From assembly GCA_020137815.1 (NCBI GenBank), contig CM035351.1, positions 2,356,001 to 2,420,000 of the forward strand: DNA of 64,000 nucleotides, written 5' to 3'. The notes beneath the pieces were generated by a model. The model searched no databases. It was given only the letters and a program-made list of their open reading frames with translations, and was not told the origin of the DNA. This stretch comes from Hormiphora californensis. Taxonomy: Eukaryota > Animalia > Ctenophora. How positions within the stretch are numbered: position 1 is the stretch's first letter; each line of letters opens with the position of its first letter. The position numbers and the translations under genes were made by a program. Below are positions 21,451 through 62,088 of this stretch, piece after piece.

Positions 21451-24400
21451 TTATACAACAAGAGGGGGTCGAACAAAGCAAGTATACTGTTGTTCTACTG
21501 ACCTGTTGAAGCTGCTGATGGAACTTTGACTGTTAGCACTACCAGCACTGTGTCGTCTCTTTAGTTTACTAGGCAGCATACTAACAATGGTAAACCTCAG
21601 CTCCCAATCCAGGGCGATAAAGATAACCGGCCTCACTGCACAACCCAACCTGAATACCAACTGAAAGGACAGATATCATGTTAACCCCATGTTAACTTTA
21701 ATTTGTGTGGAAGCACTGGAAGCAAAGAGACCCTTTTTGGGAAATGGGGTTCAGTGGTGGAAAAAATAATTATCGTTCTTCAGCAGGCCAGGGGAAAGAT
21801 TCTCAATAACGAAAAGAGCCCTATAAATACCTTGGCGATTGCGTAGTGTAGTGGCGGGGGAAGGTTAACAGTGAACCATGCCTTTAGATAGTACGTGTAG
21901 ACACCAGCTGTCGAAATGAGATGAACCAAGGACACGAATGTGAACATGTAGCAACTCTGAAACGGAGGGGTGTTTACTGTTCTGAAACCTATTACTTGTT
22001 TTTACTGTGTTAGCTGTTGTCTACGACTACAGGATTTATAAGAAAAATTTGAAATACATAACAGCTTCAGTGAAAATCATGAGAGATGAAATGTAGTATC
22101 AGATATCACTGATACTGATTAGCATTTCCAAATAATTGACTGGAGTGTTGATTGAATTGACTTATAAGCCATGAAGTCTCATTATCGTCTCCCAGTGTAC
22201 TCTCTGAGGCATTCCTCACATCACAAAGGCTCACTCGTGACAGACGACTAAAGAGAAACACCTTGTCTTCAACACACAACCGATTCTCAAGTGATGCCAT
22301 TACTTCCTTGTATGTCTTCTCGTGGTGCTTGAATAACTTGGCCAGCAACTTGACCTCAAAGAAACACTTATCGTTTTCTGTCAACTGGTAAGGCTCCTTG
22401 GATATCTCAGTTGATTCGATATTTTTCATCAACTCCATGTACAGAGTTTTTAGTTGAGAACCAGAAAGGGCAATACACATTTCAGTGTACACCGAATGCA
22501 GCTCATCTTGATTCAGGAACTCTAATAAGAGATTTGATCTCAGATCTGCACCCTTGTCAGTATACTTCAGACCACAGTTGAGAGCATACAGCAGTTTCTT
22601 ACTATTGGTCTCCCTCATCACAAATGCAGCCTCCTCGAACAAGAATCTAGCACAACCAATATCCAGTAACTCTTTCCTAGAACAGAGCTTACAGAAGAAC
22701 TTGGTACAGGACTTTTGGAGCCATTCAACTTTAAAGGCCACACTCAGCTTGTTCATATCCCTGAAGATTCCCTTTGTAATTCGCCCATCGGTGGATCCAG
22801 CGTAGCAAGATTGTACAAATCCATATACCCCATCCTTAGAGAACTCTGTCACAGGGATCTCCTTCATCCCCATTTCACCCACCATCTCCATTATAACGGG
22901 GCTGTTTTGGGCCATGATATAGGAGTTAGCTCCCACAGTGTCCTCGCCCGCTGTCTGTAGGGTCAGGTCATTGAACGCGTCCACCCTCCATAGATTGTCC
23001 CCAAAGCTAACTGGAACCTTGAATCCAGGAGAGGAGGTTTCAAGAATACTTTGAACTTTAGTACTCGACCCTCTCTCACCATCCCCCGCACCACCAAAAA
23101 GGAAAGGAGTAACTTGAAATGCACTGGATGTATTATTGCCCGACCCTCTTTGACCGCCCCCCGCTGCAGGGTTACCGAAAAGGCCAAATCCCGCCATTCC
23201 AGAATCCAGAATCAAGCTAAAAATAGTAATATTCATACTTTAGAAACTCACAACAAATAAACCCAACAACAGGATAAAATAGTGACTTGATTAAACAGAG
23301 AAAACAGAGAAAGCAACTCAACGCCAATAACACAGTGACAGTGTAAAAAACTATGCATGAAAAACTTGTATTGCACTTTTTAAGCTTAGGATGAGGAATT
23401 TATATAAGACATCGTATTATAACATAAACGGAAGTGTAATGTAAGGTGGTAGTCGTCAGGGGTATCATGTTTTCTTTGCCTTCTCTCTATCTTTCTTTTT
23501 CTATCTCTCCCCCCCCCCCCCTCAAATTTACATTCATGACCTAAAATGGGATGAGGAACTCATATAACAAGACATCTCAGGAGGGTGTATAATATGCAGT
23601 AAACATGGTAAAAGGACGTGTAATGTACTTTCACTAATGTAGGTACCTAAGGGGAAATTGATCCACTAAAAATTCTGCACAATACCTTTAGCCCCCCCCC
23701 CCCAAATCTTCACAATACCTTTAGCCCCCCCCCCAAAAATCTTCACAATACCTTTAGCCCCCCCCCCAAATCTTCACAATACCTTTAGCCCCCCCCCCCC
23801 CCCAAATCTTCACAATACCTTTAGCCCCCCCCCCCCCAAATCTTCACAATACCTTTAGCCCCCCCCCCCCAAAATCTTCACAATACCTTTAGCCCCCCCC
23901 CCCCCCAAATCTTCACAATACCTTTAGCCCCCCCCCCCCCCAAATCTTCACAATACCTTTAGCCCCCCCCCCAAATCTTCACAATACCTTTAGCCGGTTT
24001 AGCCGGTCATTAGCCAGTGTCTTGTCCGGTTTGAGCCGGAGGGAGGTCACGAAGGTGTGGCAGTAGAGGAAGAGTGCCGGGATTATCGGCAGTGTGAGGG
24101 TTATAATGACATCTAGCAGGGGGTAGACAGTCTCTCCAATACCATAAAATGAACACCTGGTAAGTAGAGGGGAAAGTTATAATCGGGACAAGGATATATT
24201 TGGGGTGGATCAGAATTAAAATGATTAATGATATCATAACTAATTCTCCCGCCCCTCCCAAAACTAACCTGTCTGTAACGAATGAGATGCCGGGACGAGC
24301 CCAGTCGAGTTGAGGTACAATGCACAGAACAAAGGATACCGTCCATATCAGGCACAACAGCAGTAGCGATCTGTGAAGTGATGAGGTGTTAGTAATAGAT

Positions 24401-24925: not shown

Positions 24926-26119
24926 CCCACTTACAGGTGAAGGGATGCTGCGATAAAAGAAACGACACCCAGTAATAGATCGTTTAATGTCAGGTTGGTT
25001 ATGTAAACGTTGTGGAGCTGTTTTAAACGTCGTTTTACGAAGAATGTCAGAATGAGAAGAGTGTTTCCACAGACAGCTATGATACCACATAGAAATAGGA
25101 CTCCTGACATAATGTAGATAGTTGTATTGTCCAACTCAACACCGGGTGATGTGCCTGAGAGAGAGAGAGAGGGGCGGGTCAGAATGGTGGGTTGCCTGAA
25201 AACCGGATCCTATTGTTTTCCAAGACAAAACTGGGATAATATTATATGTATGATATCGGGATTTTCCAAGCCCATGCCTCGTGTGATAGATCATAGACGG
25301 GGGAAAGCAGCTAGCCCATGCCTCGTGTGATAGATGGGGAACAAGCAGCTAGCCCATGCCTCGTGTGATAGATGGGGAACAAGCAGCTAGCCCATGCCTC
25401 GTGTGATAGATGGGGAACAAGCAGCTAGCCCATGCCTCGTGTGATAGATGGGGAACAAGCAGCTAGCCCATGCCTCGTGTGATAGATGGGGAACAAGCAG
25501 CTAGCCCATGCCTCGTGTGATAGATGGGGAACAAGCAGCTAGCCCATGCCTCGTGTGATAGATGGGGAACAAGCAGCTAGCCCATGCCTCGTGTGATAGA
25601 TGGGGAACAAGCAGCTAGCCCATGCCTCGTGTGATAGATGGGGAAAAAGCAGCTAGCCCATGCCTCGTGTGATAGATGGGGAACAAGCAGCTAGCCCATG
25701 CCTCGTGTGATAGATGGGGAACAAGCAGCTAGCCCATGCCTCGTGTGATAGATGGGGAACAAGCAGCTAGCCCATGCCTCGTGTGATAGATGGGGAAAAA
25801 GCAGCTAGCCCATGCCTCGTGTGATAGATGGGGAACAAGCAGCTAGCCCATGCCTCGTGTGATAGATGGGGAACAAGCAGCTAGCCCATGCCTCGTGTGA
25901 TAGATGGGGAACAAGCAGCTAGCCCATGCCTCGTGTGATAGATGGGGAACAAGCAGCTAGGGAAACAATTTGGGCGGTGTTCATGTTGTTGGCTGACAAC
26001 GCCCTTGGCACCAGGCACATAACAAAGTTGCGGTTACAGCTAAATAGCAGTTCGCGGTTACCTCTGGTGACGTTGGTTACAGTGATGTTCTCGCTGCTAA
26101 GGTTGCTATACAGGAACAT
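21451..26119 (-). CDS. Class A (rhodopsin-like) GPCR, multi-exon
   Basis: Exon 26119-26062 MFLYSNLSSENITVTNVT (three N-glycosylation sequons); TM1 GN; TM2 NLTLNDLL; TM3 CALDRY; TM5 exon 24158-23988; TM6 exon 21956-21831; TM7 LVFRLGCAVRPVIF at 21660-21451. The splice phases checked are compatible. Confidence 0.85.
22106..23197 (-). CDS. Intronless BTB/POZ-domain protein nested on the same strand in a GPCR intron
   Basis: DLTLQT..VGANSYIMAQNSPVIMEM..EFSKDGVYGFVQSCY..LSVAFKVEWLQKSC is BTB-like. Likely ATG at 23197 after acceptor tatttttag (ORF track starts at 23236). Confidence 0.8.
   Translation of the reverse strand: MAGFGLFGNPAAGGGQRGSGNNTSSAFQVTPFLFGGAGDGERGSSTKVQSILETSSPGFKVPVSFGDNLWRVDAFNDLTLQTAGEDTVGANSYIMAQNSPVIMEMVGEMGMKEIPVTEFSKDGVYGFVQSCYAGSTDGRITKGIFRDMNKLSVAFKVEWLQKSCTKFFCKLCSRKELLDIGCARFLFEEAAFVMRETNSKKLLYALNCGLKYTDKGADLRSNLLLEFLNQDELHSVYTEMCIALSGSQLKTLYMELMKNIESTEISKEPYQLTENDKCFFEVKLLAKLFKHHEKTYKEVMASLENRLCVEDKVFLFSRLSRVSLCDVRNASESTLGDDNETSWLISQFNQHSSQLFGNANQYQ
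23676..23995. repeat. ~10 copies of a ~33-35-bp tandem unit containing the GPCR exon end and splice donor
   Basis: caaatcttcacaatacctttagc(c)n; on the - strand GCTAAAG|GTATTG. Confidence 0.9.
25270..25960. repeat. 38-bp minisatellite (~18 copies) in GPCR intron 1
   Basis: gcagctagcccatgcctcgtgtgatagatggggaacaa repeated almost perfectly. Confidence 0.95.
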
Positions 26120-37582: not shown

Positions 37583-38447
37583 TAACTTTAACCCAAAATT
37601 ATATTGTTAGGCAACTAATTTACCGCAACTTTAAAGAAAAAAGCTTTACACCAATTGCAGACAACGGCCATCATTCAAAATCCTTTGCATTGCAATTCGC
37701 AAACGCCTTCTGATTGCTCAAGCAAGGTTCTAGCTTCGGAGTTCTGTCGGGCAGAATCTGCACGGAGGCCGGTCCTATACCCCTGCTTCTACTCTGTGGC
37801 TGTATGCAAGCATTCAAAAGGAACCCGAATTTACAGGATGTACCATAGGTCAAGGACACGGAGGGCAAGGCTCTCTACTTCTGCGACCTGTCACCTGCGT
37901 CTACTTGGCTTAAGTTTACGCACAATTTATCACAAAGTCACACAATTAACATATAACTTCGTCCCGCTCTTACACCGTACACCAATAAAAGTGATACAAG
38001 GCTGAGATGTGAAATTATACAGTTCACATCAGCGGTTTCCTAAGCAGTTTAAAGTTTAAACAATACAGACAGACAATAGAGACAGTGATGCACATCCTAG
38101 TAGCATTAGATGCACAAAAACGAGGAACAAGGAAAAATAGAAAACTGAAACGAGGTAATGAACAAACAAAGCAAGCAGACAGACAAAAAACAGGCTGTAT
38201 GCAAGCCATCAATCAATCAATCAATCAATCAAAATGTACATTTAACATCCCGCTTTTTGACTAATAATAGTAAGAGTGATAAACGTCATACAAAGTTACT
38301 CGATGAGCGCCAGAGCACTCCTACCAGCCTTCTAAAGCGGTGAACCCAAAGTGGAAAAGAAAGATGATATGAGTGATAATAATAGCCCAGATATGATGAT
38401 AATAAGTAGATAATAAATTAATGTTTTTGATTAAGTAAGAAATAATT

Positions 38448-38958
38448 GGGGGGGGGGGGGCCTGCCGCAAGAATCTCATGCCTCATTGGCGATTTTCAGG
38501 GTAGCTGGGATTTTTGAGATTTTCGATTTTTGTCTAAAAAACGTGGGATTTTTGAGATTTTTGAGGCAAATTTGCGATTTTTCGGGGAAAACCCAAAAAT
38601 TTTTCTCAAAAATCTCATAGAAAGCAAAAATTTCCATTCGAAAATTTGGAATAGAAACAATCCTTGTGTTTTTCTACCAAAAATCAAAATTCTGAATAGA
38701 AATGTTCCTTGTGTTCTAGTACAAAAGTTAATGTGAAGCTAAAACATGAAATCTACCAATTTAAAATTCTAAACTGGTATTATGATTCAGTTTTAAGCTA
38801 AAAAATATGTCGAAAAACTGAGTATTGGCAGCCAAAATTGTGCCAATTTACCACAAAAATCTCAAACGTAATTGAGCAAATTTTCCCAAAAATCTCAAAA
38901 ATCTCATCGGCCGAAAAGAGGGTAGCTGAGATTTTTGCGGCAGGCCCCCCCCCCCCCC
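38448..38958. mobile_element. MITE inserted in the LINE 3'UTR
   Basis: TIRs (g)n-cctgccgcaa.aatctca / tgagatttttgcggcagg-(c)n; TSD ataatt at 38442-38447 and 38959-38964. Confidence 0.85.
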
Positions 38959-40500
38959 ATAATTATATGTATGAAAATATATGTTAAATCAATGTAATAA
39001 GTTACATAGAAAAGAGATTAATCACGAAATAAAAGAGTGGAGCGAATCACTGCTCCGTAATTCTGAAGCTCAATGCATGCAGCGGACGTATAGATGTACA
39101 CATAAATTAATGGGACAGTCCATCCTAAACACCATACGACTTTTCAAACAGGTGGGTTTTGAGTCTGGATTTGAAAGTTTCCTCGTCTGAACAGTTGCGA
39201 ATGTTAATGGGAAGTTGATTCCAGATCCTCGGGCCTGAAACTTGAAATGCACGCTGTGTGGTTTTGTACTTGGTTGAAAAATCCCTTTCCAAAAGGGTCA
39301 GATCACCGTCGTGACGTAGTGATTTTCCTTTCCTCTGACGTTTGTTTATTAGATTTTGAAGATATTGTGGTGCTTGATTGTTTAGACACTTGAAAACCAT
39401 GAGACAGATTTTAAATTCAATTCTAGCATCAACTGGAAGAAATTGTAATTGCCGCCTAAGGTCTGTAACTCCCCTCCACTGCCACCTTCCAAACACAAAG
39501 CGAGTCGCTGCGTTCTGCACTTTTTGCAATCTGGCAATGTCACATTTATCGGCACCAATTAGTAAGCCGTTACAGTAGTCCAGACGAGAGTGGATGAGCG
39601 AATGGACCAGCTGAACCTTGTGTCTTCTCTGTAGCTTGTTTCCAATTCTACGGAGGTTGACAAGGTTATAGTTACATTCCTTCACAACTTTTGAAACATG
39701 TTCTTTCATGGTAAGTTTTTCATCAAAGACAACACCCAGATTCTTGGCACTCTGGGAGGGAAAGATGGTCGCCGAGAGGGGTCCTTCCTCATCACACAAT
39801 GTTAGAGGATCTGAATAGTCCAGTGGGTTTGGACTATTATCAGTTCGAGAGGAAATGAACATCAACTCAGTTTTTGCCGGGTTTAGTTTCAGGTAACTGG
39901 ATGCCATCCATGCTTTAATTTCCAAGAAACATTTTTTGAGTTGAGACTCACATTCGTTCCAGGCATCGTTTGTGAAGCTGACATACAGCTGAGAATCGTC
40001 AGCGTAGAGGTGAATCTTGGTTTTGTGTCGTGCCGCTATAGCTTCCAAGTCCTTAGTGAACAGAATAAAAAGTAACGGACCGAGGATGGATCCCTGCGGT
40101 ACACCTATTTCGATGTTAACAGGAAGTGATTGACTTTTGCCAATTTTGACAACTGCTACCCGGTCTTTCAGATATGACTGGAACCACTCAAGAGCCACCC
40201 CTTTGATTCCATACATCTTGTCCAATCGGCTAATGAGAATGTTGTGAGGGACTGTGTCGAAAGCAGCGGATAGATCCAAGAGGAGAAGAACGGCCTTATT
40301 CCGTTTATCAGTGAGAACTAGCAGATCATTGAATATACGTAGTGTTGCTGTTTCACAGGAGTGCTTCTGTCTGTATGCCGATTGAACTGAGGCAAGAAGT
40401 CCATGGCTTTCCAGATGTTAGCTGTAATCTGTAGAGCAACGCACTTTTCAATAATCTTTGAGATAAAACTCAGATTAGAAATCGGTCGATAACTTGACAT

Positions 40501-41464
40501 GTTTTATTAGTAGAGGGGTTGTAGCACCGGGAGGTAATGAGTAAACACACACACACGCATTGAGCAAGCTCAATGTTTAGCTATTCTCCGGCTGGGTATA
40601 GGGCTGAGGTACTGGCAAGATATAGTAGGATCGCTACTGCCCACATGTCAAGTCTATTCGGATATACAAGTTTAAAAGGTTGGGGGGTCACAGGGACCGT
40701 CTTAGCTTCGCTCCCCGTTAACATTGCCTGTAACCGGGGGTCCACTAAGCTCTCATATATACTCGGCCATTACTCCCAACCACTAGTAGTGGTTTTCAGT
40801 ACCTCTTATACTGGTAATTCCGTATAGAAACAATCCTTGTGTTTTAATAGCGATCACTCCGTATATCTTGCACTGACCCAGTATTACCACACATTAATTG
40901 TGCAATTGGCACTATGGGATTTCTCCACTGCGGCCGGCACTGTGAGTAATCAGCCACTATATAAGCTACATCTTGGTTGCTAACCAGTCAATACATTAGT
41001 AGAGGGGTTGTAGCACCGGGAGGTAATGAGTAAACACACACACACGCATTGAGCAAGCTCAATGTTTAGCTATTCTCCGGCTGGGTATAGGGCTGAGGTA
41101 CTGGCAAGATATAGTAGGATCGCTACTGCCCACATGTCAAGTCTATTCGGATATACAAGTTTAAAAGGTTGGGGGGTCACAGGGACCGTCTTAGCTTCGC
41201 TCCCCGTTAACATTGCCTGTAACCGGGGGTCCACTAAGCTCTCATATATACTCGGCCATTACTCCCAACCACTAGTAGTGGTTTTCAGTACCTCTTATAC
41301 TGGTAATTCCGTATAGAAACAATCCTTGTGTTTTAATAGCGATCACTCCGTATATCTTGCACTGACCCAGTATTACCACACATTAATTGTGCAATTGGCA
41401 CTATGGGATTTCTCCACTGCGGCCGGCACTGTGAGTAATCAGCCACTATATATATATATATATA
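40501..41464. mobile_element. Head-to-tail ~1.9-mer of a 489-bp non-coding unit inserted in LINE ORF2, with (TA)n at one end
   Basis: Identical copies offset by 489 bp. Host ORF2 rejoins as LDSNS|MSSYRPISNL when the insert is removed (target AT). Confidence 0.9.
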
Positions 41465-43355
41465 TGCTGTTCGAGTCGAGTCCTTTCCCTTTGTAAACCG
41501 GTCGTATCATGGCATTTTTCAATGTAGAGGGAAACACTCCACTAGTAAGGCTACCGTTGACAATAGCCAATATTATCGGCATCAGTTCGTGGATGCATTC
41601 TCCGACCAGTTTTGATGGTAGAGGGTCAAGGTCACATTGTTTGTAGTTCATTGATCGAACAATTTTAACTAGCTCCTCACTAGATAATGCACGAAAGGAA
41701 TCGAGTTGTGGTGGGCTGGGAGTTTCGGGTCCTCTGGTGACGTCTTCTGTCCGTAGTTTCTTGATGTCCAAATATATTTTGTCCACTTTTTCCTTGAAAT
41801 ACTGAACGAATTTTTGACAGAGATCAACTGGGTCATCATGTTCCGGTAGTGTGCTCGGATTCTTCTCCTTGCCAAGCAATCCATTCGTAATTCGATATAT
41901 TACCGATTGGTCATTCCCAGCCTCTTCCAGTTTCCTCCGATAGTAGTCGTCTCTGGTTGAAGTGATGAACCGTGATGCCTCTTTCGCCTCGCGTCTGAGA
42001 TTCCTCAGAGATTCAACCAGTATCTGCGAGGGAACATCTCTCTTCAGTAACGCCTTGAAATCACGCTCGGCTTTCCTGCGTCGCCGTTTTGCCGCCTGAC
42101 AGTCACTATTAAACCAGGGAGGGCTAGGATTTTCTGGAACAACCTTATTCTCAATCGGGGCAAGTTCGTCCAAAAACTCGGACAGAAGGTCATCATAGAG
42201 TTTAATGATCTCAACCAGTTCACTAGGGAATTCTTCTGTGTCGCAGAGTGGGGATTTCAGTATGGTGCATCGAAGTTCATCCACATCCAAATTCTTGATA
42301 TCCCGTCGTTGAATGGAGATGAAGTCCTTCCGCTGAATTGGAGCCCCGATTGGAAGGTTAAACGAAACCAGTGCGTGGTCAGGAGCTGCAGGAGTCATCT
42401 CTACAGCAAGATTTGATATTGGAAGAGCATCAGGGAGATTCTTCGTGAGAACTAGATCGAGTATTCCACCTGAGACATGAGTGGCGGTGTTTACCGACTG
42501 GTGAAAGTAGTGATCATCAAGGAGTCCACAGAAGGATTTGGCAAAACTATCATGTATGTTCTGTACATGTATGTTGAAATCACCAGTTATGACGACCTCT
42601 CCCGACCTTTCAGCCAGACCATGAAGTAGTGTCTCGAACTCCTCCAAGAAAACCGAATGGGATTGGGATGGGGAGCGGTATACACCAAGTAATCGAAGCG
42701 GCATGCAGTTTGAATGAGTCAGCAATAATTCAATACATTCCATTGATGAGAAAGAGTGATTGAACTGAGTGAAATGAAAGGAGTTTTTCATGAGAATAGC
42801 TACACCACCCCCTCTAGAACCACGTGCAACACTAACTAACCTATACCCAAGCTCACTAATTTGACTCTCAATAGCACTCTCAATAGCATGTAACCAAGTT
42901 TCGGTCAAACAAACAGCATCAATATCATTGTCTATGATAGTCAGTAAAATATCATCAACCTTGTTTCTCAGAGAAAAACAGTTCAGAGTGGCCAACTTTA
43001 CCTCTACTCGTTTTTTGACCTTGTAGCTTCATATATAGCTTTGTATGCCGGACACTCAGTGCTGTTTGCCCGGTGGGAGACATCGTCCTTTGACTTTCCA
43101 TTCAGGGAACAGTTTTTTTTTTTTTTGTTTTGGGGCATTAAGCTAAGGCGTACCAAGTCTCATACCACCCGGGTATAGACGGCATAGCCTGGAACCCTCC
43201 GTACGAACTCCCTTGAAAATTCAAGGGAGAGCAGTGCACATTGGAGGGCCCTACGCTTGTCTTGTGTCTGTCTTGGTCAGTCTAGATAGTTAAAAACTGA
43301 TCATAATAATACATAGATTTCAATGATTACGCAAGCTTTATCCTATAAAGTTACA

Positions 43356-43618
43356 GGGTCTGGAACAAGGTATCGTTTTGCCTTTGAGAGTTTCTTGAGT
43401 TTAGTTTGGTCTGGAACAAGGTAACGTTTTGCCTTTGAGAGTTTCTTGAGTTTAGTTTGGTCTGGAACAAGGTAACTTTTTGCCTTTGTGAGTGTCTTGA
43501 GTTTAGTTTGGTCTGGAACAAGGTAACGTTTTGCCTTTGTGAATGTCTTGAGTTTAGTTTGGTCTGGAACAAGGTAACGTTTTGCCTTTGTGAATGTCTT
43601 GAGTTTGGGTCTGGAATC
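43356..43618. repeat. 51-bp VNTR (~5 copies) inside the composite retroposon
   Basis: ggtctggaacaaggtaacgttttgcctttg...gagtttagttt unit. Confidence 0.92.
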
Positions 43619-44043
43619 CAGATGTATACCGTGTTTTGAATAGTCAATTACATTCACAATATAAACTTTACACAATCTGTGAACAGACAATACGAACAGG
43701 TGAACTTACAGAATTTTGATGGATGATTGTTACCGTGATGTTGGTTGGTGATGGGAATGGAGATGAGAGCCGAGAGGTGTATCCTTTTCCGTTAGAGATA
43801 AAGATAAACGAGAACAATCAAACACAAATAAGGGGTAGGACAGATTGTAGCACCACTAAAGTGTAAAATGTTCTAGAAGACAATTCGGATGAGATAGATA
43901 AGAACATTTGTTAGTTGTTACACGCGATAAGCGACTTAGTGCACCAAAACACAAGGATTGTCTCTGTAGTGTGGTGTTTAGCAATGTCCGCTATATTGGG
44001 AGAGGTGGGTGGGGGAGGGCGGGTGGGGGTGGGGCGGGGGGTA

Positions 44044-45616
44044 ATATTGGACAAAAATGTAGCTGTAATTTAGTGATGAGACCAGGCCAGGCCCGAGAGA
44101 CAGTTCAGTGGTAACTGGGAGGTCATGTGTGATGGAAATGAGAACTAAAGACAGATTTGAGTTGTATTTTATTGAGGAAAACAGCCCTTTTTGGTGTCTG
44201 AGACAAGCAAAAGTGAAACGAAATGCAACATAACGAACGAGTAATGAATAGAATTCTGCTCTGTGACTTGTTAGTGCTCCTTTATAAAACACGCAATGGC
44301 AAAGTACAAAGTTTCGCAAATTTAATTTAATGCGAAATTCCAAAGTTTTGGTCGATTTCGGCCAAAATTGCTGCCCTAAACTAACAATTGGACTGTGCGT
44401 TGCCGGGGAGACTGCTCGCTGGTGACTGAGAGATCATATGTTCTCGAATATTGGTACTTGAGGCGGATTTAAGTTGCATTTTAGTGTGGGGAAGAGGGGA
44501 ATATTGGACAAAAATGTAGCTGTAATTTAGTGATGAGACCAGGCCAGGCCCGAGAGACAGTTCAGAGGTAACTGGGAGGTCATGTGTGATGGAAATGAGA
44601 ACTAAAGACAGATTTGAGTTGTATTTTATTGAGGAAAACAGCCCTTTTTGGTGTCTGAGACAAGCAAAAGTGAAACGAAATGCAACGTAACGAACGAGTA
44701 ATGAATAGAATTCTGCTCTGTGACTTGTTAGTGCTCCTTTATAAAACACGCAATGGCAAAGTACAAAGTTTCGCAAATTTAATTTAATGCGAAATTCCAA
44801 AGTTTTGGTCGATTTCGGCCAAAATTGCTGCCCTAAACTAACAATTGGACTGTGCGTTGCCGGGGAGACTGCTCGCTGGTGACTGAGAGATCATATGTTC
44901 TCGAATATTGGTACTTGAGGCGGATTTAAGTTGCATTTTAGTGTGGGGAAGAGGGGAATATTGGACAAAAATGTAGCTGTAATTTAGTGATGAGACCAGG
45001 CCAGGCCCGAGAGACAGTTCAGAGGTAACTGGGAGGTCATGTGTGATGGAAATGAGAACTAAAGACAGATTTGAGTTGTATTTTATTGAGGAAAACAGCC
45101 CTTTTTGGTGTCTGAGACAAGCAAAAGTGAAACGAAATGCAACGTAACGAACGAGTAATGAATAGAATTCTGCTCTGTGACTTGTTAGTGCTCCTTTATA
45201 AAACACGCAATGGCAAAGTACAAAGTTTCGCAAATTTAATTTAATGCGAAATTCCAAAGTTTTGGTCGATTTCGGCCAAAATTGCTGCCCTAAACTAACA
45301 ATTGGACTGTGCGTTGCCGGGGAGACTGCTCGCTGGTGACTGAGAGATCATATGTTCTCGAATATTGGTACTTGAGGCGGATTTAAGTTGCATTTTAGTG
45401 TGGGGAAGAGGGGAATATTGGACAAAAATGTAGCTGTAATTTAGTGATGAGACCAGGCCAGGCCCGAGAGACAGTTCAGAGGTAACTGGGAGGTCATGTG
45501 TGATGGAAATGAGAACTAAAGACAGATTTGAGTTGTATTTTATTGAGGAAAACAGCCCTTTTTGGTGTCTGAGACAAGCAAAAGTGAAACGAAATGCAAC
45601 GTAACGAACGAGTAAT
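44044..45616. repeat. 457-bp tandem monomers (3 full + 1 partial)
   Basis: Identical spurious ORF ends at 44381, 44838 and 45295 (period 457). Confidence 0.95.
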
Positions 45617-47553: not shown

Positions 47554-50500
47554 ATGTCCGCTGTAAACAGACGGAATGCTAATGAACTGCTATGTGGACC
47601 GATTGTCTCACCTCTTTTGGAATACTCCGTGGTTCTACTAGTTCATGGCGTTTCCTTCCAAAGTATCGACCAACTTAGAGCAGAGGTAAACATTTGGTCA
47701 TTTTTGATACCCACAATTATTATGTTTCGACCGATGATGCACCTACTCTTCCTTGATCCGCTGTCTGGCGGCCCTGACCCGATCTGAGCGGCACCAGACA
47801 GTGACTAATAGTAATTTGTTTTTTGTCCCAGGACGGTTACGACTTGAAGTTAAGTGTTCAGATAGCCAGAGTTAATGAAGAGCTGCCAATATTAAAAACA
47901 AAAACCGTCCCCCTCAGTAGGTAGGGAATCGATTGTTGAGTTACTCAGCAAGGAATTGATGAATCATACCCATAAAGAAATGAGCTCCTATCCGGTTACA
48001 TGATCATACTCATCATAGTAGGATATAAGTGTTGGGTATAATAAGTCTGTGTGGGTGTGTAAGTATCCCTTTTAACCTAAGCACATTACAGATCAGTATT
48101 TGAAGAGGTATTAGTTGTTCACACGGAAACACTTGAAGAACTAGAACTTCTCCTTTGTACTGCCGAGGAGGTGCTAGATGAGTATGCACTACGCCTTGGT
48201 GACTGGAGTTCCTTTACCTATAAACACCTGGCGCTGGCAGGGCAAAGCAGTGAATTGTTTATCACAGCAGTGGTCAAGTCAAGATCAATACCACCTGCTT
48301 TATCACCACATCTTGATCTACAGGTACTTTTCGGTGTTGGGGCAGGGTTCAGGAATCGCCACGCCTATTCTCCAACTTTCATTCGCCTTACTGGCTTGTT
48401 ACTCAACTGTTAGTTGAGTCAACTGGCCCCTTACTCAACAATTACCGGCAGGTTATGGTACAATATCTGGAGACGCCGATCAGCCACCCAAAGGAAGGAG
48501 TGATGATACTTGGCAGTGACAACTTTATAAAGGATCTTGCACAGCTCCCCATCAACTCGAACAGCAACGTAAGGATCAAGATTCAAGAGTCCATTTTTAA
48601 AATCCTGATAGTTACAACTTACAAGTTGCCCAAGCCCACTATTTTCCTTGGTTATGAAATACCCCGTTACCAACTATTTTCTCCCGTTCAGATCCAGGTG
48701 ACGGTACCTCAGGGACCCTCTGATCAGCCACAGTGGTACCATACCTTCCTGTTCCGCGGCTGTTCCCTGGAACAAACCATTGGCCTTCACTTCTTCCACC
48801 AGGCATATGTGATACAGGATACTGTGAGTAACGGCTTTTTTAATGTCAATGTATTAAGAAGTTTTATGATCTGACCTCTCTGAACCGAACTTTCTGAGGC
48901 TGTGTTATAGTGAGTGTATTGTGTGGTGTGCACTGTACACGAAGATACCGTCGTGTAGTTAGATCTAAGCCCTATAGCCAACCATTTCTCAATTTCATGA
49001 TTGTGGGGGGGGGCCACCACCTTTTTTTTTGCCCATTGCCCATAATCCCAGCGAATTTTGGTTTTGCCCATATGGGCAAAAATGGGCAAAAGTGGGCAAA
49101 AATGGGCAAAATGAAATTTTTAGTGTTTTTTGTTGTTTTTTCAACTCTATAACTTGATTTTAATTCTTTAAAGTGAGAGAGAACAGCCCTGATTTTGATA
49201 AAACTCGGTCAGAATGGTCTTTGGTGTCACATTAGAAGTCAAAAAATTGTTTAGTGGTCAAATCGTAAATTTAGGATTTTTTAAATTTTTTTAAAGGTTT
49301 TAGGCTTTATGGCTTTATTTTGTTCTAGGACGTTTCTGAAGCCCATGAAAGCCAAAAAACCTAAAAACCTAAAAAATTCTAAACTTAGGATTTGAGCACT
49401 AAAATTTTTTTGACTTCTAATATGACACCAAATACCATTCTGACAGAGTTAAATCAAAATCAGGGCTGTTCACTTTCACTTTGAATAAGTTAAATCAAGT
49501 TATAGAGTTGAAAAAACGACGTATAACACTGAACATTTCATTTTGCCCATTTTTGCCCATGTTTGCCCATTTTTGCCCAAAGTCCCACGATTTTTGAAAA
49601 TTCAGTTTTGCCCATATGGGCAAATATGGGCAAATATGGGCAAAAAAAAAGGTGACGGCCCCCCCTGATTGTGATATAGCAGGGACAAAACGATATGTAA
49701 CCCACTCATCCGGATATGTTTCCAGCAACAGTGGAGACTGGGTGAAAAGTTGGCTGAATGTCCTATGACCTTATCTCGAGGCTTAGTGGCCCTCCTGGAG
49801 TCTAATCCGGAGGGGGTGTGCTTCTCTCGAGTTCCACTTCTTTCCATCCAACCAACTCTCTTCGCCAGAATCTCCCTAAAACTAGGTAGGTACTTTTTAT
49901 GTTCTAGCCCTTTACAGGGTGCCGTGAGACAGGGTCGAGCAAGGCAAGTAGGTACTTCGTCCGGTAAATCTTTGTATTATGATTATGATGATGCTAAAAC
50001 ACTACCAAACTCACCACTCGTTTATACTCAGGTTGCACTCCTGCACTCTCGCCGAATGCCATTCCCAAAGTGACCAGACCGTGGGGCGAGTGGGAGGAAA
50101 TAGCACCAGAACCACCACGACCACAGACCACTGACAATGCTCCAAAACACATTCCCGCCAATGGAGAAGAGAGTCCACTCAAGGATCTCGTACTGCCTGA
50201 ACATTCGGCTATAATGAAACTGCTGGAGAGACACTCGACACCTCAAACAAGTCACCATCCAATAGCTGTGACTGGGCCAACAGCAGGGGGAGGGACTGGA
50301 ACGGGCCAGAACTCTGAGTATATGGGGAAAGTAATTGAATCTCAGGCGGCGGAACTCGCTCGATACCGGTAACTGTTCCTGAGATAGGACTTCTAATCTT
50401 CTAGTCGTACAATTAGTTCACTGCTTTATTTATTCTCCTCAGTCTTATTCCTAATTAGGAGAGGAAAAACTGAAAAATTTAGGCAACTAATTGTTATAAA

Positions 50501-52395: not shown

Positions 52396-53350
52396 CGCGC
52401 ACCGTGCGCGTTCTGTGGAAAGTACACTTTTCAGCACTTGGTGTTCGATATGTGTAGACCCCGTGTGTGAATATGGTGCTACTGCTAACCGGGACTAGGG
52501 TTGGCAGTTGGACATATGGCCCCTTTTGAGCAAAACAGTAAACCGTAAACGGCTAATTTAGCAAATTACTGTGTGATAAACCGATTTTTTTTGCGTTGTA
52601 ACCGAGAATAATTCCATTCTGTAACAAAGAGATAAACAAGTTCTTTCAAAAAAGTGCAACCTGTTGACTTGATTCAAGATTGAAGAATGGTTCACAATTC
52701 AAACGGGGGAATGAAAAGTAGTGGACAATGAAGCATCGCACTACTAACACACACAGGGAAATAAGGGAAGGGGAATAGGGGGCAACATATCGTCTCTTTA
52801 AAAAACGTTTTAACTGATCAGTCCTGAACTGGCGAGTGTCTGAGTTCTATCATTAAAATCACGTGTCACAAACGTGTGCCAACTCACTGATCATCTAAAG
52901 ATCTAATATCTATGTGTCCTCTCTTGCTTGTATCATAATAGTATATAGGAGCTGTGGAGTCTCGTTTCATGCAGGAGGGAGGGAGGGGGAAGAAGGGGGG
53001 TGTGAACCAAGTCGGTAGGTTTAAAACCCTCTCTCGGTAATTATCGGAGGGATGAGGAGGTCTGGGGTTGTCTGGAGCTGTTTCATTTTATGTATGTTGA
53101 TACCGCACTTCCTATCAATATGTAACACACTTTGTAATCATCCACCTTATATATCATATACATCTGCAGTTCGTCTTGTAAATTCTTCATTTGTGTGTGT
53201 GCCACTCTGGGCATCTGTTGTTGTTTGTTGTTGGAAGAGAAAGAGAGGGAGCAGAGTGGTGGAACATAGTGCCATTGGGAACGGAGGAGGATAGGGTTTG
53301 CATCTTGTCGCATCAACAACACAGTGAGACACACTGCACTCCAGGGACCG

Positions 53351-54123
53351 CTAGACAAAACCGGGCCTGTCCGCCTGGTAGGTACTATCCTGGGAGAGCA
53401 GGCCATCACCCGGCTGTGACTTGAACTCCTCCAGCACGTATCTGGGTAGAGGGAGATGGGGTTACATGGAGTGTGGGAGAGGGATAGAAGGGGGGGGGGG
53501 TAACATGGTGTGTGGGAGAGGGAGGCGGGGTGAGAGGGTGTGTGGAGAGGGAGGCGGGGTGGTTAGGAAGAGGTCAACGATTAGGAAGAGTTGGGTTCTG
53601 ATTGGATCTCACTTACGTGTCTTGAGATAGTTCAAGTTGAGACAATGGTTGGCTCATGCTATGTTGACTCATGATGGGCTGGGTTAGTGGTGCAGAACCA
53701 GTGTACCCAGGGTACCCTCCATACATCTGACTCAGATCACTCCCATAGGGGACAGCAGCAGCTGCAGCAGCGGCCGCTCCTCCCTTGCCCCTCTTGGCGG
53801 TACCGGGGTAGTAGTTACGGTGGGGTGGAGGAGGGGCTGCCATGAACATTCCAACTGGTATGGGAACATTAGCAGGGATAGCAGCCGGGTTGGGAGCACT
53901 GTTTATGAAACCCATCTGGTCGTGGGGCTTGTAGTAGTCGTCCCGGTACATGTCAATACCTGGGCCAGAACCGGGCATTCTCTCGTACGTAGCACTAGAC
54001 ATGAACACCTGTAGGGAAGGAAGTGTCAAAAAAGTGAGATTGTTGCTTTTACTAAAGAGAGTAAAAGTGAGATTGTTGCTTTTAATTAAGAGAGTAAAAG
54101 AAAGATTTGTTACATTAACTAAG

Positions 54124-54187
<64 letters not shown>

Positions 54188-54949
54188 TAAAAGGTTCCTA
54201 CTGTAACACACCTCTCGGGCATCATACATAGCGGTCCTCATGAAGCTAGCTCCAGGGTTGTCCCTGTTCACCAGGGGTTTCTTGGGTTTACTGAAACTCA
54301 TCAGACAACTCTTCAGGTTATTCAGGGGTCCCTCAACCAGCAGATCGGCATCCTTGAAGTGGCCCAACAAACGGTGCCACAGAGCCTGTTTGGCCAGGAC
54401 CTTGGGGTTTCCAATGATAACCACACCATGCTTGGCTCGTGTCAGGGCCACATTTAGACGTCTAGGATCGTTTAGGAAGCCAATTCCTTGGTGCTCGTTG
54501 GCTCGCACACAGGATAGAATGATGAAGTCCTTCTCTCGACCCTGGAACGCATCAACTGACGCCACCTCAAGCTCCTGAAACGGGAAATGGGTAAACACGG
54601 ATAATTTAGGGCGCAATGATATCTGAATTTTCTTTCTCTTTCTCGAATGAAGACAGTGTCTCAACATGAAATTTGAAAATATTCGTTTTACCTTTTAAGT
54701 AAATGGAATTGGGGTAAAAACGGGGCATGAGTAAACATGTCCGTGGGTTGCGCAGGTGAAAATGATCTTCCCTTGTTCATATAAAAGGTACAAAATATCC
54801 TAGATTTTACATGGCCACGGCATCATTTGGGAAGCCATTAGAGAACCATTAGTGTCTGTTATGGCCTTAACCATGCATCACATGGTTGGTTTGGCAACCA
54901 TACAATCTGAGTGAGACAATCATGGGAATTTTCAGGTGTATAAATCACA

Positions 54950-55021
<72 letters not shown>

Positions 55022-58000
55022 TGTGTGTGTGTCACATCCGTCCTTCCCGTGACTTAATGATTGTTGACTTTGGAGGAACATCTAATAACATTGCCCCAGC
55101 TTGTGTCCCCCGTGTCACGCTGCCCTATTGTTTACTTTTAGTCTCTCTCTCTTTCTTTCTCTATCTCTCTCTTTCTCTATCGCTCTCTTTCCTTCTCATT
55201 CTCTCTCTTTCCTTCTCATTCTCTCTCTTTTTCCTTCTCTCTATCTATCTCTCTCCATTCCTTCTAGATCAAAAATGCTATAAAAGGAGGAAATGTAGCT
55301 TTCAAAACATTGCGTAGAAAGACTTCCTCACTCAACATTCGAATTCTCTGCGTTGATCAGGACTCCAATTTCTTTTGTACATAAAACCTTCCCTCAGTCA
55401 CTAAAATACTGTTATGTTTGTTTCTCGATCTAGTGATACAATCTCTGCATTTGCTGGCACTATGGTTGTTTGTCGCCCGGTTAGCTTTTTGCTATTATTT
55501 TGGGCCATTTTATGTCAGTGAAATTCTTAGTGATAACCGATATTGTAGATGAAAGGTGCTCCGTGTTCTCCACAACAATTTACGAGCACCCCGTGCAATG
55601 CCTTTGTGCAGTCTTGTCCGATTAAATCTTCAATTGAGCATTATCATGATAATAATATCAACTTTCTATTCCTGTTTTAGCCCAATTCCTCACCATGCCT
55701 GAACAACTTGAAACCTACGGAGAATTCGAGAATACGGTTCTCAAAGCATCAGCCGACAAACTCGTCGTTGTTGATTTCTGGGCTACCTGGTGCGGGCCCT
55801 GTGTCCGATTTGCCCCCACCTTCGGAAAGATGGCCGAGGAGATGACCGACGTGCTCTTCTTCAAGGTGGACGTGGACAAGAACACACAAGCTAGTGAATA
55901 TGCTGAGATCAGCTGTATGCCAACTTTCAAGATCTACAAGGCTGGAAAGTGTTTGGATACTATTGAAGGAGCGAATGAGGCTAAACTGAGGGCGAGCATT
56001 ACTAAACATAAATAACTCTTTCATGTGTTTGTATCCGATCACCGTGTATTCAATTGTGTTACTGTTAAGTTTTTGTTACTCATTACTTTAAAATATTACG
56101 TTTTTAATGGTTTCCTGCCCCTATTCCTGTGTATGAATACCCGTGATTATATACTCAATACGAGGGGGAGCCGGGAATATATTTACCTGGTATAGATTGG
56201 AGTGCATGCTTCCATGATACTGCATGTACTGCACCACGTACGCTCTCTGTCCCTCGTAAGGGGTAATCACTCCGATCTGGTCTGGTTTCACACCACACTT
56301 CATCAGACGAGTTACAATCTTCTCAACATTGGCCGCCTCGGTCCGGTTCAGATAACTCGTACCCGAGGATGAAATCTCCTCTTGTCCTGAAAAGAAGAGG
56401 AGGGTCAGCTATGGAAGGGGTGGATCCAGAACCAAATTAAGGAAGTTGTCGGGGGGGGGGGGGTTGCATGGCAACACTATTCTTCTGTTAGAGTCAGAAT
56501 AAACAATAAATGATGGGAGATGAGTATTCAGTGTTATGGAACACTTATGTAACTAACCGGTGGTAACCCAGAAAAACATGGGTTTATCGGGGATAGGCCA
56601 GGGGAAATCAATGTTGTTGTTGCCCCGTTCCGCGTGGGTTACTCCGTTCTGCAGGGTACCATCGTAGAAGATGTCACTGGGGAACTGCGACAGGGACGGG
56701 TGCATCCTGTACTGGACCTGAGGGTGATTAAGCTCATGGTAGGGGGACTCTCATTACCAATAACATAATGGAAGATGTTATTGGAAACTTGCTCATTGAT
56801 TAGATTGTTTAATTTTGTGAAAACTATCACTGACAATAATATTTTATCTTCCTGGGCCGGATTCAATGTGTTATGTAAGGAATGTTACCTGTAGCCGAAT
56901 TGGCCGAATCCCAAGAATAATAAGCCTCTCAAACAGAGACTGAGCGAGACCCGCCCGGGCTGCCTTCTTGCACATAACAACTGGTCCCAGCTGGCAATGA
57001 TCCCCAACAAGAATAACCTGTGAGATGGAGAGATAAAGATCGAAGGATTGGGGGCATCCCAGTGGTTTATAACTCAGACGTCACTTCTGAAAAAAAGCAT
57101 ACCTGTTTGGCTCCCAGAACGATGGGCACCATGCACTCCGGCTCCGTTGCCTGGGTACTCTCATCTATCAGGATGGTCCTAAACCTGAGTTTGGCCAACC
57201 TGGGATCCCCAGCCCCCACACAGGTACAACAGATAACATCTGCATTCTGGAGTAACTCCCTCTCCGCTTGTTTTCTCAGCGTCCTGAACCTCTTCTCGTC
57301 CGCACTTGACAGCTCACCCTGATCCTCTTTTAGGGCTTGTAGTTTCTCTAACTCACCGTAACCCTCCAGTGCTTTAACCTGGGGGAGATGGAGTGTTTTA
57401 TGACACAATATGCTTCACATTGTGTCGTTAAAGTGAGGGGGCTGTCGTTAAAGTGAGGGGGCTGTCATTAAAGTGGTTAGAGGGAATCACAGTAGCGGGT
57501 TGTGTGGTTAGGGGGGGGGGGGGTTAATTACAGTAGCAGGGTCGTATCATACTCGGTCTCAGTATTTACCTGGCGATGAAGGGAGAGGAATGCCACAGGA
57601 GACTCGATTGTTTCCCTGCTCTTGGCACACAACCTAACCACCTTCAGACCGGTCCGATGAACCTTGTCGGTCAGTTGATCGACAGCGGTGTTGGAGGGGG
57701 CACACATCAGCACCCTGCCTCCCCGATCACCAGCACCCCTACACAGGTGGTACACAATCGTAGCTGATGTAACTGTCTTGCCTGATGAGGGGGGGGGGTA
57801 ATTTGTTGTACTAATCAGTATATGGATACATCATACAAACGTCCTGGTAAACGAACTAAAACATTCAAATAACCAACACCGGGGGCACGGAGAAGTTGAG
57901 AAAAAACAAAACTCAATACCAGGATAGGAAGTGGGGTGTGATAAACATGATAGGAAGTGGGATGCGATAACCAACACTAGGATAGTAAGTGTGACAAACA

Positions 58001-61000: not shown

Positions 61001-62088
61001 ATGCTTTTGGCCCTCTTTTATAAACATAACGGTATAGTACGATATGATCTTTAAAGGCATTAGCAGACTACCATCAATGTCTAGTACTAGAACAATGAAC
61101 ACAGTCAAACCAGTGGGGGTGTGAAAATTAGGAATTAGGAAAAATAGCACACCCCTGCAGGGGAGGAGGAGGAGGACTGGAACTAAAAACCCATATTGGT
61201 CCAATCATATACAAACCGAACAGACAACCACACGAGACAGTACAGTACAGCAACACGAGACAGTACAGTACAGCAACACGAGACAGTACAGTACAGCAAC
61301 ACGAGACAGTACAGTACAGCAACACGAGACAGTACAGTACAGCAACACGAGACAGTACAGTACAGCAACACGAGACAGTACAGTACAGCAACACGAGACA
61401 GTACAGTACAGCAACACGAGACAGTACAGTACAGCAACACGAGACAGTACAGTACAGCAACACGAGACAGTACAGTACAGCAACACGAGACAGTACAGTA
61501 CAGCAACACGAGACAGTACAGTACAGCAACACGAGACAGTACAGTACAGCAACACGAGACAGTACAGTACAGCAACACGAGACAGTACAGTACAGCAACA
61601 CGAGACAGTACAGTACAGCAACACGAGACAGTACAGTACAGCAACACGAGACAGTACAGTACAGCAACACGAGACAGTACAGTACAGCAACACGAGACAG
61701 TACAGTACAGCAACACGAGACAGTACAGTACAGCAACACGAGACAGTACAGTACAGCAACACGAAACAGTACAGTACAGCAACACGAGACAGTACAGTAC
61801 AGCAACACGAGACAGTACAGTACAGCAACACGAGACAGTACAGTACAGCAACACGAGACAGTACAGTACAGCAACACGAGACAGTACAGTACAGCAACAC
61901 GAGACAGTACAGTACAGCAACACGAGACAGTACAGTACAGCAACACGAGACAGTACAGTACAGCAACACGAGACAGTACAGTACAGCAACACGAGACAGT
62001 ACAGTATAGCAACACGAGACAGTACAGTTCAGCAACACAAAACAGTACATTATACAATATATTGATGCGGCTTACCGGCGCTTGTCAT
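53351..62088 (-). CDS. UPF1: Regulator of nonsense transcripts 1 (NMD helicase), multi-exon
   Basis: 13-nt first coding exon 62088-62076 (MTSA-G) joins [13 protein letters not shown]; CH domain [10 protein letters not shown]; GPPGTGKT; DESTQ; [10 protein letters not shown]; [10 protein letters not shown]; SQ-rich tail [12 protein letters not shown]. Confidence 0.96.
55695..56015 (+). CDS. TXN: Thioredoxin (intronless), nested antisense in a UPF1 intron
   Basis: 106 aa; [15 protein letters not shown]; FKVDVD; ISCMPTF; lies in UPF1 intron ~54576-56186. Confidence 0.95.
   Translation: MPEQLETYGEFENTVLKASADKLVVVDFWATWCGPCVRFAPTFGKMAEEMTDVLFFKVDVDKNTQASEYAEISCMPTFKIYKAGKCLDTIEGANEAKLRASITKHK
60744..60810. 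mobile_element. Tc1/pogo(Tigger)-like MITE terminal fragment; related fragment at ~15165-15238
   Basis: TA|CAGTCGGACCCCGATTTA; reverse-orientation match taaatcagggtccgactg ending at 15238. Confidence 0.5.
61230..62050. repeat. 23-bp minisatellite (~35 copies) in UPF1 intron 1
   Basis: cacgagacagtacagtacagcaa repeated; accounts for the four long repetitive ORFs here. Confidence 0.97.

What the first reader, a model, noticed from the sequence alone, without database searches (positions are those of the whole stretch)
40501..41464. Head-to-tail dimer of a highly base-paired 489-nt unit: retrozyme/circular-RNA-like mobile element with no recognisable ribozyme
Seen: two identical tandem copies (the second truncated at an internal TATATA that has expanded to (TA)n) inserted at an AT in LINE ORF2. 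The unit has many complementary segments: gcaagatata/tatatcttgc stacked with gatcgcta/tagcgatc, ctgggt/acccag, gaggtactg/cagtacctc, ggttggg/cccaacc, hairpins cattgagc-aa-gctcaatg and aaccact-agt-agtggtt, and a crossed pair ggacc/ggtcc plus cttag/ctaag (pseudoknot geometry). There is no credible ORF. Established: metazoan retrozymes are tandem non-coding monomers copied from circular RNAs and carry self-cleaving ribozymes. Inference: an RNA circle was reverse-transcribed about 1.9 times round. I could not fit a complete hammerhead, HDV or twister (only partial twister-like words UAACAUUGCC..GUCC..AAGC), so any processing motif may be new.
Basis: partly seen in the sequence, partly recalled or inferred. 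Interest (0 to 1): 0.8.

Follow-up and report, generated by a model that had tools for sequence, protein, structure and literature searches.

The report
Ribozyme-free tandem jumping element
This is a young, abundant 489-base non-coding repeat from a marine animal that recently landed as a near-double copy inside another jumping gene; it is likely copied through RNA by a borrowed Penelope-type enzyme, it carries none of the known self-cutting RNA motifs, and whether its RNA forms circles is untested.

Summary
The dimer is real: 458 nt + 31 nt + the same 458 nt + (TA)n, 965 extra bases in LINE ORF2, with the empty site seen in another run. In two runs the unit assembles as one closed 519-nt loop (489+30), so it is an abundant head-to-tail repeat; a second family is ~87% alike. 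Folding is only moderately better than shuffles (z -2.3 to -3.0; 5 of 20 control values were -2.5 or lower); several listed helices exclude each other and the 'pseudoknot' is chance-level. No hammerhead (any block order), HDV, twister or hairpin ribozyme; Rfam finds nothing. The anatomy (partial tandem, 31-37-nt piece missing at one end, TA end, at most 3-nt duplication, no hammerhead) matches Naiad/Chlamys-type Penelope-like elements, so the best reading is a non-autonomous Penelope-mobilised retroposon (0.5); no partner element was found. Three copies start in one predicted 4-nt loop, which fits a defined RNA end better than random run-off from a circle. Circle and new ribozyme remain untested (0.15). 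The scan noted a similar ribozyme-less element in another genome (e1-9541180).

The parts
40499..40501 (+). ATG of the target, left copy (3-nt duplication or microhomology)
   Evidence: (empty site in X7)
40502..40505 (+). TTTT found neither in the empty site nor at the tandem junction; likely untemplated 5' junction bases
40506..40963 (+). Copy 1 of the 458-nt core (unit positions u1-u458)
40964..40994 (+). 31-nt piece present only between the copies (u459-u489); size of a Penelope-type 'tail' (31-37 nt, as the end lies somewhere in TATATA)
   Evidence: comparison
40995..41452 (+). Copy 2 of the core, 100% identical, ending in TATATA
41447..41465 (+). (TA)n run of 19 nt, absent from the empty site
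41464..41466 (+). ATG of the target, right copy
40967..41025 (+). Predicted imperfect hairpin across the unit junction (u462-u489 with u5-u31); its 4-nt loop u1-u4 (40995-40998) holds the three left boundaries seen
   Evidence: (loop probability 0.96-0.98)
40596..40962 (+). Predicted closing helix u91-u102 (40596-40607) with u445-u457 (40950-40962); one compensatory change in family B
   Evidence: by-hand comparison
40615..40871 (+). Predicted rod; best helices u110-u131 (40615-40636) with u343-u366 (40848-40871), p 0.98-0.99; both arms are also alike in family B
40545..40575 (+). (AC)n stretch followed by an 8-bp hairpin
40958..40965 (+). TATA-box-like word 37 nt before the next unit start; not kept in family B
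40719..40750 (+).
40825..40844 (+). 20-nt word shared with two other repeats of the window (38652-38671 exact; 43947-43966 minus, 2 mismatches)
41467..43028 (-). Host LINE ORF2, endonuclease half
39125..40501 (-). Host LINE ORF2, reverse-transcriptase half; this copy differs from most family copies by 2 bases near 40420

Best explanation
It is a young, abundant, non-coding tandem repeat unit without a known ribozyme that likely moves as a non-autonomous passenger of a Penelope-like retrotransposon (Naiad/Chlamys-type behaviour). Shown: the anatomy (4 T, 458, 31, 458, (TA)n, at most 3-nt duplication), a recent insertion into a LINE, head-to-tail organisation of the family, a second family, no known ribozyme. 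Inferred: tandem arrays are transcribed on the + strand into multi-unit RNA with a 5' end at about u1 (start site or cut site); a Penelope-type protein nicks AT-rich DNA and starts reverse transcription inside the RNA at about u458, just before the 31-nt tail of the second unit, runs to the RNA's 5' end, and leaves 2 x 489 minus the tail; the TA run comes from slippage on the terminal TATATA or from a donor copy that sat in a TA microsatellite. A circle is possible but not needed.
For: Missing piece 31-37 nt, inside the 30-40-bp 'tail' that PMC8557442 and PMC11167929 describe as specific to Penelope-like elements and explain by two internal RT start sites; chance of this size for random ends about 2%, post hoc. 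Naiads favour (TA)n, often show no clear duplication and lack canonical hammerheads; non-autonomous Chlamys make multicopy head-to-tail insertions. Closed 519-nt loops in X4 and X2 and a looped path in X6; junction joints in X1. Empty site in X7 and 100% identity: recent, dispersed insertion. Left boundaries at u1 (window), u2 (X16), u3 (X12). Both listed variants that fall in likely helices (u122, u149) give G-U pairs on the + strand only; two more fall at unpaired positions. No terminal or subterminal inverted repeats at the ends.
Against: No autonomous Penelope-like partner was seen: none among the window's ORFs of 150 aa or more (by reading), no whole genome held, and 5 of 6 words had no match in the Naiad/Chlamys/Hydra supplement, the sixth a single 11-mer inside unrelated sequence. 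The target held no TA microsatellite. Only one full insertion could be read; the X12 boundary sits on a fold-back contig and may be an artefact; X7 shows other boundaries (3 contigs leave after 40574, one enters at 40695, one skips 40555-40736) and 147 loose ends were not shown. RNA evidence is two short contigs at depth under 5 in mixed-community libraries. Structure conservation in family B is mixed (1 compensatory, 1 consistent, 1 helix kept by a slip, 5 pairs broken). The strand is inferred from two G-U changes.
Confidence: 0.5

Rival explanations
1. Satellite DNA captured at a break: a tandem satellite (or a small DNA circle from it) was copied into a double-strand break in the LINE by templated repair, with slippage giving TTTT and (TA)n. 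No RNA step; the fold is incidental.
For: Closed loops are what long arrays give; AT/ATG microhomology at the right end and ACAT just before both the target site and the unit junction; fold z is matched by 5 of 20 control values; another unrelated 457-nt, 3.5-copy, 99%-identical array lies 2.6 kb away.
Against: Three left boundaries within 3 nt; tail-sized gap; two families keep the same junction-spanning region and both arms of the rod; excess of 7-bp stems (4 of 300 shuffles).
Confidence: 0.2
2. True retrozyme analogue: multimeric RNA is cut in the u1-u4 loop by an undescribed ribozyme or a host nuclease, ligated to a 489-nt circle, and reverse-transcribed from the circle or from a cut dimer.
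For: The monomer defined by the observed boundaries folds with its two ends paired and the boundary in a 4-nt loop (p 0.96-0.98; 32 of 489 positions are in such loops); this domain is the part shared by both families; size, G+C under 50% and tandem arrays resemble metazoan retrozymes.
Against: No known ribozyme; junction domain z only -1.6 on both strands; run-off from a circle would not end at one place; contigs cannot show circularity, and the closed loops come from runs recorded as probable DNA.
Confidence: 0.15
3. Ordinary LINE-driven retroposition (L2/CR1 or RTE type) of a read-through transcript from an array, with TA repeats added by template slippage.
For: Active-looking, homogeneous LINE family in the genome; simple-repeat 3' ends are usual for such LINEs (recalled).
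Against: No similarity of the unit to this LINE's 3' end; no tRNA head, no exact A or B box; no poly(A) on the + strand; no long duplication; the tail is said not to arise in LINE TPRT.
Confidence: 0.1
4. Non-autonomous rolling-circle DNA element (Helentron/HINE or Helitron) inserted in tandem.
For: Microsatellite followed by a hairpin and T's at u40-u73, with 3 X7 contigs leaving the unit at u69; T-string at the left end; one CAGTATTAC word like a rolling-circle nick site (motif recalled).
Against: No subterminal inverted repeats, target not TT, ends not TC...CTRR; the insertion does not start or end at the u70 hairpin; the nonamer is not in a tight hairpin loop.
Confidence: 0.05

Closest known systems
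Naiad/Chlamys Penelope-like elements and non-autonomous Chlamys such as MRC1 (Craig et al. 2021, PMC8557442; passages, sections 10 and 15, supplement part 1 of 59 and word searches)
   Same: Partial tandem, 30-40-bp tail at one end only, (TA)n association, unclear duplication, no canonical hammerhead, multicopy head-to-tail non-autonomous forms.
   Different: No ORF; no sequence link to any autonomous element shown; non-autonomous forms are described there for green algae, not animals; target had no TA array before; no inverted 5' copy.
Metazoan non-LTR retrozymes (Cervera and de la Pena 2020, PMC7229834, parts 2-3 of 6; Li et al. 2026, bioRxiv 10.64898/2026.07.22.740005, parts 1-3 of 5)
   Same: Non-coding tandem units of a few hundred bases, G+C under 50%, self-paired RNA, proposed Penelope origin.
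   Different: Defined by a type I hammerhead in each unit, which is absent here; circular RNA not shown; duplication at most 3 nt rather than longer than 4.
Poseidon element PAc of Anolis (Frangieh et al. 2024, PMC11167929, parts 1-2 of 4)
   Same: Offers the mechanism: nick at AT-rich DNA (ATT preferred; the unit starts with ATT), RT start inside a multi-copy RNA at two sites that bound the tail, hammerhead cleavage not needed in vitro.
   Different: PAc is autonomous and has a hammerhead; nothing here was assayed.
HINE/DINE-1 non-autonomous Helentrons (Thomas et al. 2014, PMC4067079, passages)
   Same: Non-coding, microsatellite plus short hairpin, T-string at a boundary.
   Different: No subterminal inverted repeats, no TT target, whole unit repeated.

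Membership tests
Metazoan non-LTR retrozyme | Type I hammerhead in each unit | tested here: not met
   Rfam E<=10: 0 matches; three-block search in any order, up to 1 core mismatch: 0 on both strands
Metazoan non-LTR retrozyme | Non-coding head-to-tail units of about 150-1000 nt in many copies | tested here: met
Metazoan non-LTR retrozyme | Stable self-paired monomer | tested here: inconclusive
   z -2.3 to -3.0, matched by 5 of 20 controls; mixed conservation in family B
Metazoan non-LTR retrozyme | Abundant circular RNA and self-cleavage | not testable with these tools
   Only contigs were available; two short RNA-run contigs
Non-autonomous Penelope-like element | Partial or multicopy head-to-tail insertion | tested here: met
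Non-autonomous Penelope-like element | 30-40-bp tail present at one boundary only | tested here: met
   31-37 nt in the one full insertion readable; recurrence across copies not testable
Non-autonomous Penelope-like element | End shared with an autonomous RT/GIY-YIG element of the same genome | not testable with these tools
   No genome held; word search of published consensi negative, a weak test
Non-autonomous Penelope-like element | AT-rich or (TA)n target, no fixed duplication | tested here: inconclusive
   (TA)n at one end and 0-3-nt duplication, but the empty site has no TA array
Twister ribozyme | Cleavage block, P4/L4 block and P2-GA-T1 partner block all pairing | tested here: not met
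   Only partner for the u214 block is at u4 with a C-A mismatch in P2 and a 2-bp P1; Rfam 0. Consensus features recalled.
HDV-like ribozyme | Nested double pseudoknot P1-P4 with catalytic C | tested here: not met
   0 on +; 8 hits on - all use one (UG)n repeat as P3/L3; Rfam 0
Hairpin, pistol, twister-sister, hatchet ribozymes | Match to family model or loop motifs | tested here: not met
   Rfam 0; one hairpin loop-B half word without its partner; no descriptor run for the last three
HINE/Helentron, Helitron | Subterminal inverted repeats and TT target, or TC...CTRR ends | tested here: not met
tRNA-derived SINE | tRNA-like head with A and B boxes; LINE-related tail | tested here: not met

The most novel reading that the evidence does not exclude
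An animal retrozyme-like family that makes a 489-nt RNA circle without any known ribozyme: multimers are cut in the conserved 4-nt junction loop by a new catalytic fold or a host nuclease, the paired ends are ligated, and a Penelope-type RT copies the RNA back into the genome.
Probability: 0.15. Interest if true: 0.8.

Novelty: new variant of a known kind. Interest (0 to 1): 0.42.

Why it matters
Searches for animal retrozymes start from the hammerhead, so hammerhead-free tandem passengers of Penelope-like elements would be missed or filed as satellite DNA. A young, nearly uniform family with two variants and a mapped insertion is a small test system for two open questions named in the papers read: whether the ribozyme is needed for such elements at all, and how the Penelope tail and tandems form. 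If the junction loop turns out to self-cleave, it would be a new ribozyme class. If it is only a satellite captured at a break, it is ordinary.

Tried and rejected
Homologue hunts in prokaryotic, viral and metagenome collections: 9 pattern scans (on collections; 34 on the window) gave 34 loci; none extends beyond 14-37 nt of similarity, so all were taken as chance, and no alignment, covariance model or formal covariation test could be made. Rfam: 0 matches in three scans of the unit; 13 weak hairpin-type matches elsewhere in the window, none in the unit. X14 (organism B): one 179-nt contig with 1 difference at depth 2.3, likely carry-over; not taken as a second host. Summed contig depth (unit about 10-20 times the LINE flank in X1) is not a copy number and is used only as 'abundant'. 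The X12 fold-back joint (40608+ to 40811-) is not taken as proof of RNA structure, as X7 shows a similar joint. Spliced-leader or snRNA array: no Sm site, and the donor-like GT at u29-30 is lost in family B. Telomerase template: absent. TATA-driven promoter: not kept in family B, so not relied on. Host taxon: animal by its genes, nearest named proteins far off; a ctenophore was only a guess and is not claimed. Earlier notes by sequence or place: none. No whole genome and no protein-atlas answer were available.

Full report
Observation. Tandem Repeats Finder gives period 489, 1.9 copies, 100% matches at 40506-41452; the identical stretch is exactly 458 nt (40506-40963 = 40995-41452). Below, u = window position minus 40505. 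The insert reads: TTTT, u1-u458, a 31-nt piece u459-u489, u1-u458, then a TA run of 19 nt (41447-41465). It splits one minus-strand LINE ORF2 into an endonuclease half and an RT half. A 349-nt contig of run X7 goes from 40501 straight on to 41467: the empty site exists, 965 bases are extra, and ATG stands on both sides (3-nt duplication or microhomology). There are no terminal or subterminal inverted repeats. All six frames of the circle hold 4-14 stops, and 4 unit ORFs have no Pfam match at cut-off.

Host. The window holds intron-poor animal genes; one tested protein has its nearest relatives among unnamed sequences at 62-68% identity and only distant named animal ones. Runs that hold the unit are one organism and marine or seawater metagenomes (20 of 24 rows, 13 studies). 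I call it an unnamed marine animal. No whole genome is held.

The family. I laid 8 of the 24 listed runs. In X4, a run with only 1.6 million letters of contigs, and in X2, the unit is one 519-nt contig whose ends overlap, i.e. 489 + 30, a closed loop for 31-letter words; X6 follows the same loop through bubbles; X4 does not cover the LINE flank. X1 has 11 listed joints from the unit end to its start, and 11 loose ends before 40506 all match the junction. So the unit is abundant and mostly head-to-tail; this shows tandem DNA (the runs are guessed to be DNA), not an RNA circle. A second family is present in X4, X2 and X6, about 87% alike over u470-u170 and about 93% over u332-u374, with 100 letters where family A has 95: it is a loop of similar build. 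Both RNA runs laid hold short pieces at depth under 5: X16 has u2-u178 after 191 unrelated letters, X12 has u3-u103 after 21 loose letters and then folds back. With the window copy this makes three left boundaries at u1, u2, u3. Against a single fixed end, X7 shows other boundaries (3 contigs leave after u69, one enters at u190, one skips 180 nt), the X12 contig may be chimeric, and 147 loose ends were not shown.

Structure. The unit folds better than shuffles on both strands: z -2.71 and -3.01 linear, -2.25 and -2.58 circular; the rod alone -2.26, the junction domain -1.6 on both strands. Five of 20 control values from the same window are -2.5 or lower. Perfect stems of 7 bp or more number 13 against 6.4 (4 of 300 shuffles). 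In the circular fold the unit ends pair with each other (u462-u489 with u5-u31) and u1-u4 form a hairpin loop (0.96-0.98); 32 of 489 positions lie in such loops. By hand, from the variant table and one 30-letter contig end of family B against the pairs: in the 12-pair helix u91-u102/u445-u457, 8 pairs are unchanged, 1 is compensatory (A-U to G-C), 1 goes from G-U to G-C, 2 break; the helix u29-u31/u462-u464 is kept by a one-base slip; 2 G-U pairs at u24-u25 and 1 pair at u74 break; partners of u17, u19 and u105 could not be read. Eight of 16 listed substitutions fall at unpaired positions against 33% expected (p 0.12). Of the 4 substitutions listed, two give G-U pairs on the + strand only and two are unpaired. 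This is weak, mixed support for a + strand RNA fold.

Ribozymes. Rfam gives 0 matches at E up to 10 over the dimer, the junction and the apex. A three-block hammerhead search in any order, which covers the non-circular permutations of PMC10085705 (passages), finds 0 with up to one core mismatch; with two, 0 on + and 5 on - against 5.0 in shuffles. The twister-like words at u214-u245 have as only partner strand u4-u12, with a mismatch in P2, a 2-bp P1, and no way to reach across the rod (consensus recalled). HDV: 0 on +, 8 repeat-driven hits on -. No tRNA, exact A/B box, Sm site or telomerase template.

Mechanism. The insert is two units minus 31-37 nt. PMC8557442 (passages, sections 10 and 15) describes for Naiad/Chlamys Penelope-like elements partial tandems, a 30-40-bp tail at one end only that is not seen in LINE insertion, (TA)n bias, no canonical hammerhead, and non-autonomous head-to-tail forms such as MRC1. 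PMC11167929 (parts 1-2 of 4) shows that a Penelope protein nicks AT-rich DNA, starts RT inside a multi-copy RNA at two sites that bound the tail, and does not need hammerhead cleavage. The preprint 10.64898/2026.07.22.740005 (parts 1-3 of 5) ties animal retrozymes to Penelope terminal repeats. Applied here (inference): + strand multi-unit RNA with a 5' end near u1, RT start near u458 of the second unit, run-off at u1. This explains the gap size (about 2% by chance, post hoc), the shared left boundary and the TA end without a circle. What is missing is the partner: none in the window, and the published consensi gave no match for 5 of 6 words and one stray 11-mer. I put this at 0.5, satellite capture at 0.2, a true circle with new processing at 0.15, LINE-driven copying at 0.1, a Helentron-type element at 0.05 (features from PMC4067079, passages).

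Novelty. It works like a retrozyme in build but fails the defining hammerhead test (PMC7229834, parts 2-3 of 6), so it is not filed as one. Seven paper searches showed no description of a hammerhead-free tandem Penelope passenger in an animal; the library is incomplete, and the algal MRC1 is a precedent. PMC7761336 (passages) mentions unpublished truncated twisters in RTE elements; I could not compare them. This scan noted a similar element in another genome (e1-9541180), read after my Penelope reading was noted; it is not independent support. Two other notes prompted the rewired-hammerhead test, which was negative. Verdict: real, mobile, likely RNA-copied, a new variant of a known kind; the circle and a new ribozyme are open but unsupported.

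Noticed in passing
window 44029-45616: A second young tandem array, 457-nt unit, 3.5 copies, 99% identical, unrelated in sequence, at the end of a 435-aa minus-strand ORF that looks like a LINE ORF1; folds far better on + than - (-112 vs -74 kcal/mol) but z only -1.1; no exact hammerhead core, no Rfam match.
   Followed up: partly
window 38437-38970: MITE-like element with G-run terminal inverted repeats and a likely ATAATT duplication, just beyond the LINE's 3' end; holds the 20-nt word shared with the unit and a degenerate second copy.
   Followed up: partly
window 40825-40844, 38652-38671, 43947-43966: One 20-nt word occurs in three otherwise unrelated repeats (0 expected in 100 shuffles); may be a host-factor site or a captured fragment; unexplained.
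   Followed up: partly
window 40418-40421: This LINE copy has 2 bases more than nearly all family contigs in X1 and X7, shifting ORF2: a private change or an assembly error.
   Followed up: no
window 6963-37000 and 53000-59500: Host genes in long intron-poor ORFs (an SGSM-like protein confirmed; others resemble ASCC2, RTF1, UPF1 and an acyl-CoA dehydrogenase by reading, names recalled), with many (AG)n microsatellites.
   Followed up: no
window 43357-43606, 25293-25960, 61230-62049, 23674-23995: Further homogeneous minisatellites (51, 38, 23 and 31-35 nt units), suggesting frequent local tandem growth in this genome.
   Followed up: no
window 40879-40887: CAGTATTAC, like the nick-site nonamer of circular single-stranded DNA replicons (motif recalled), but not in a tight hairpin loop.
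   Followed up: partly
window 49028-49646: Inverted-repeat element built of 10-nt units.
   Followed up: no
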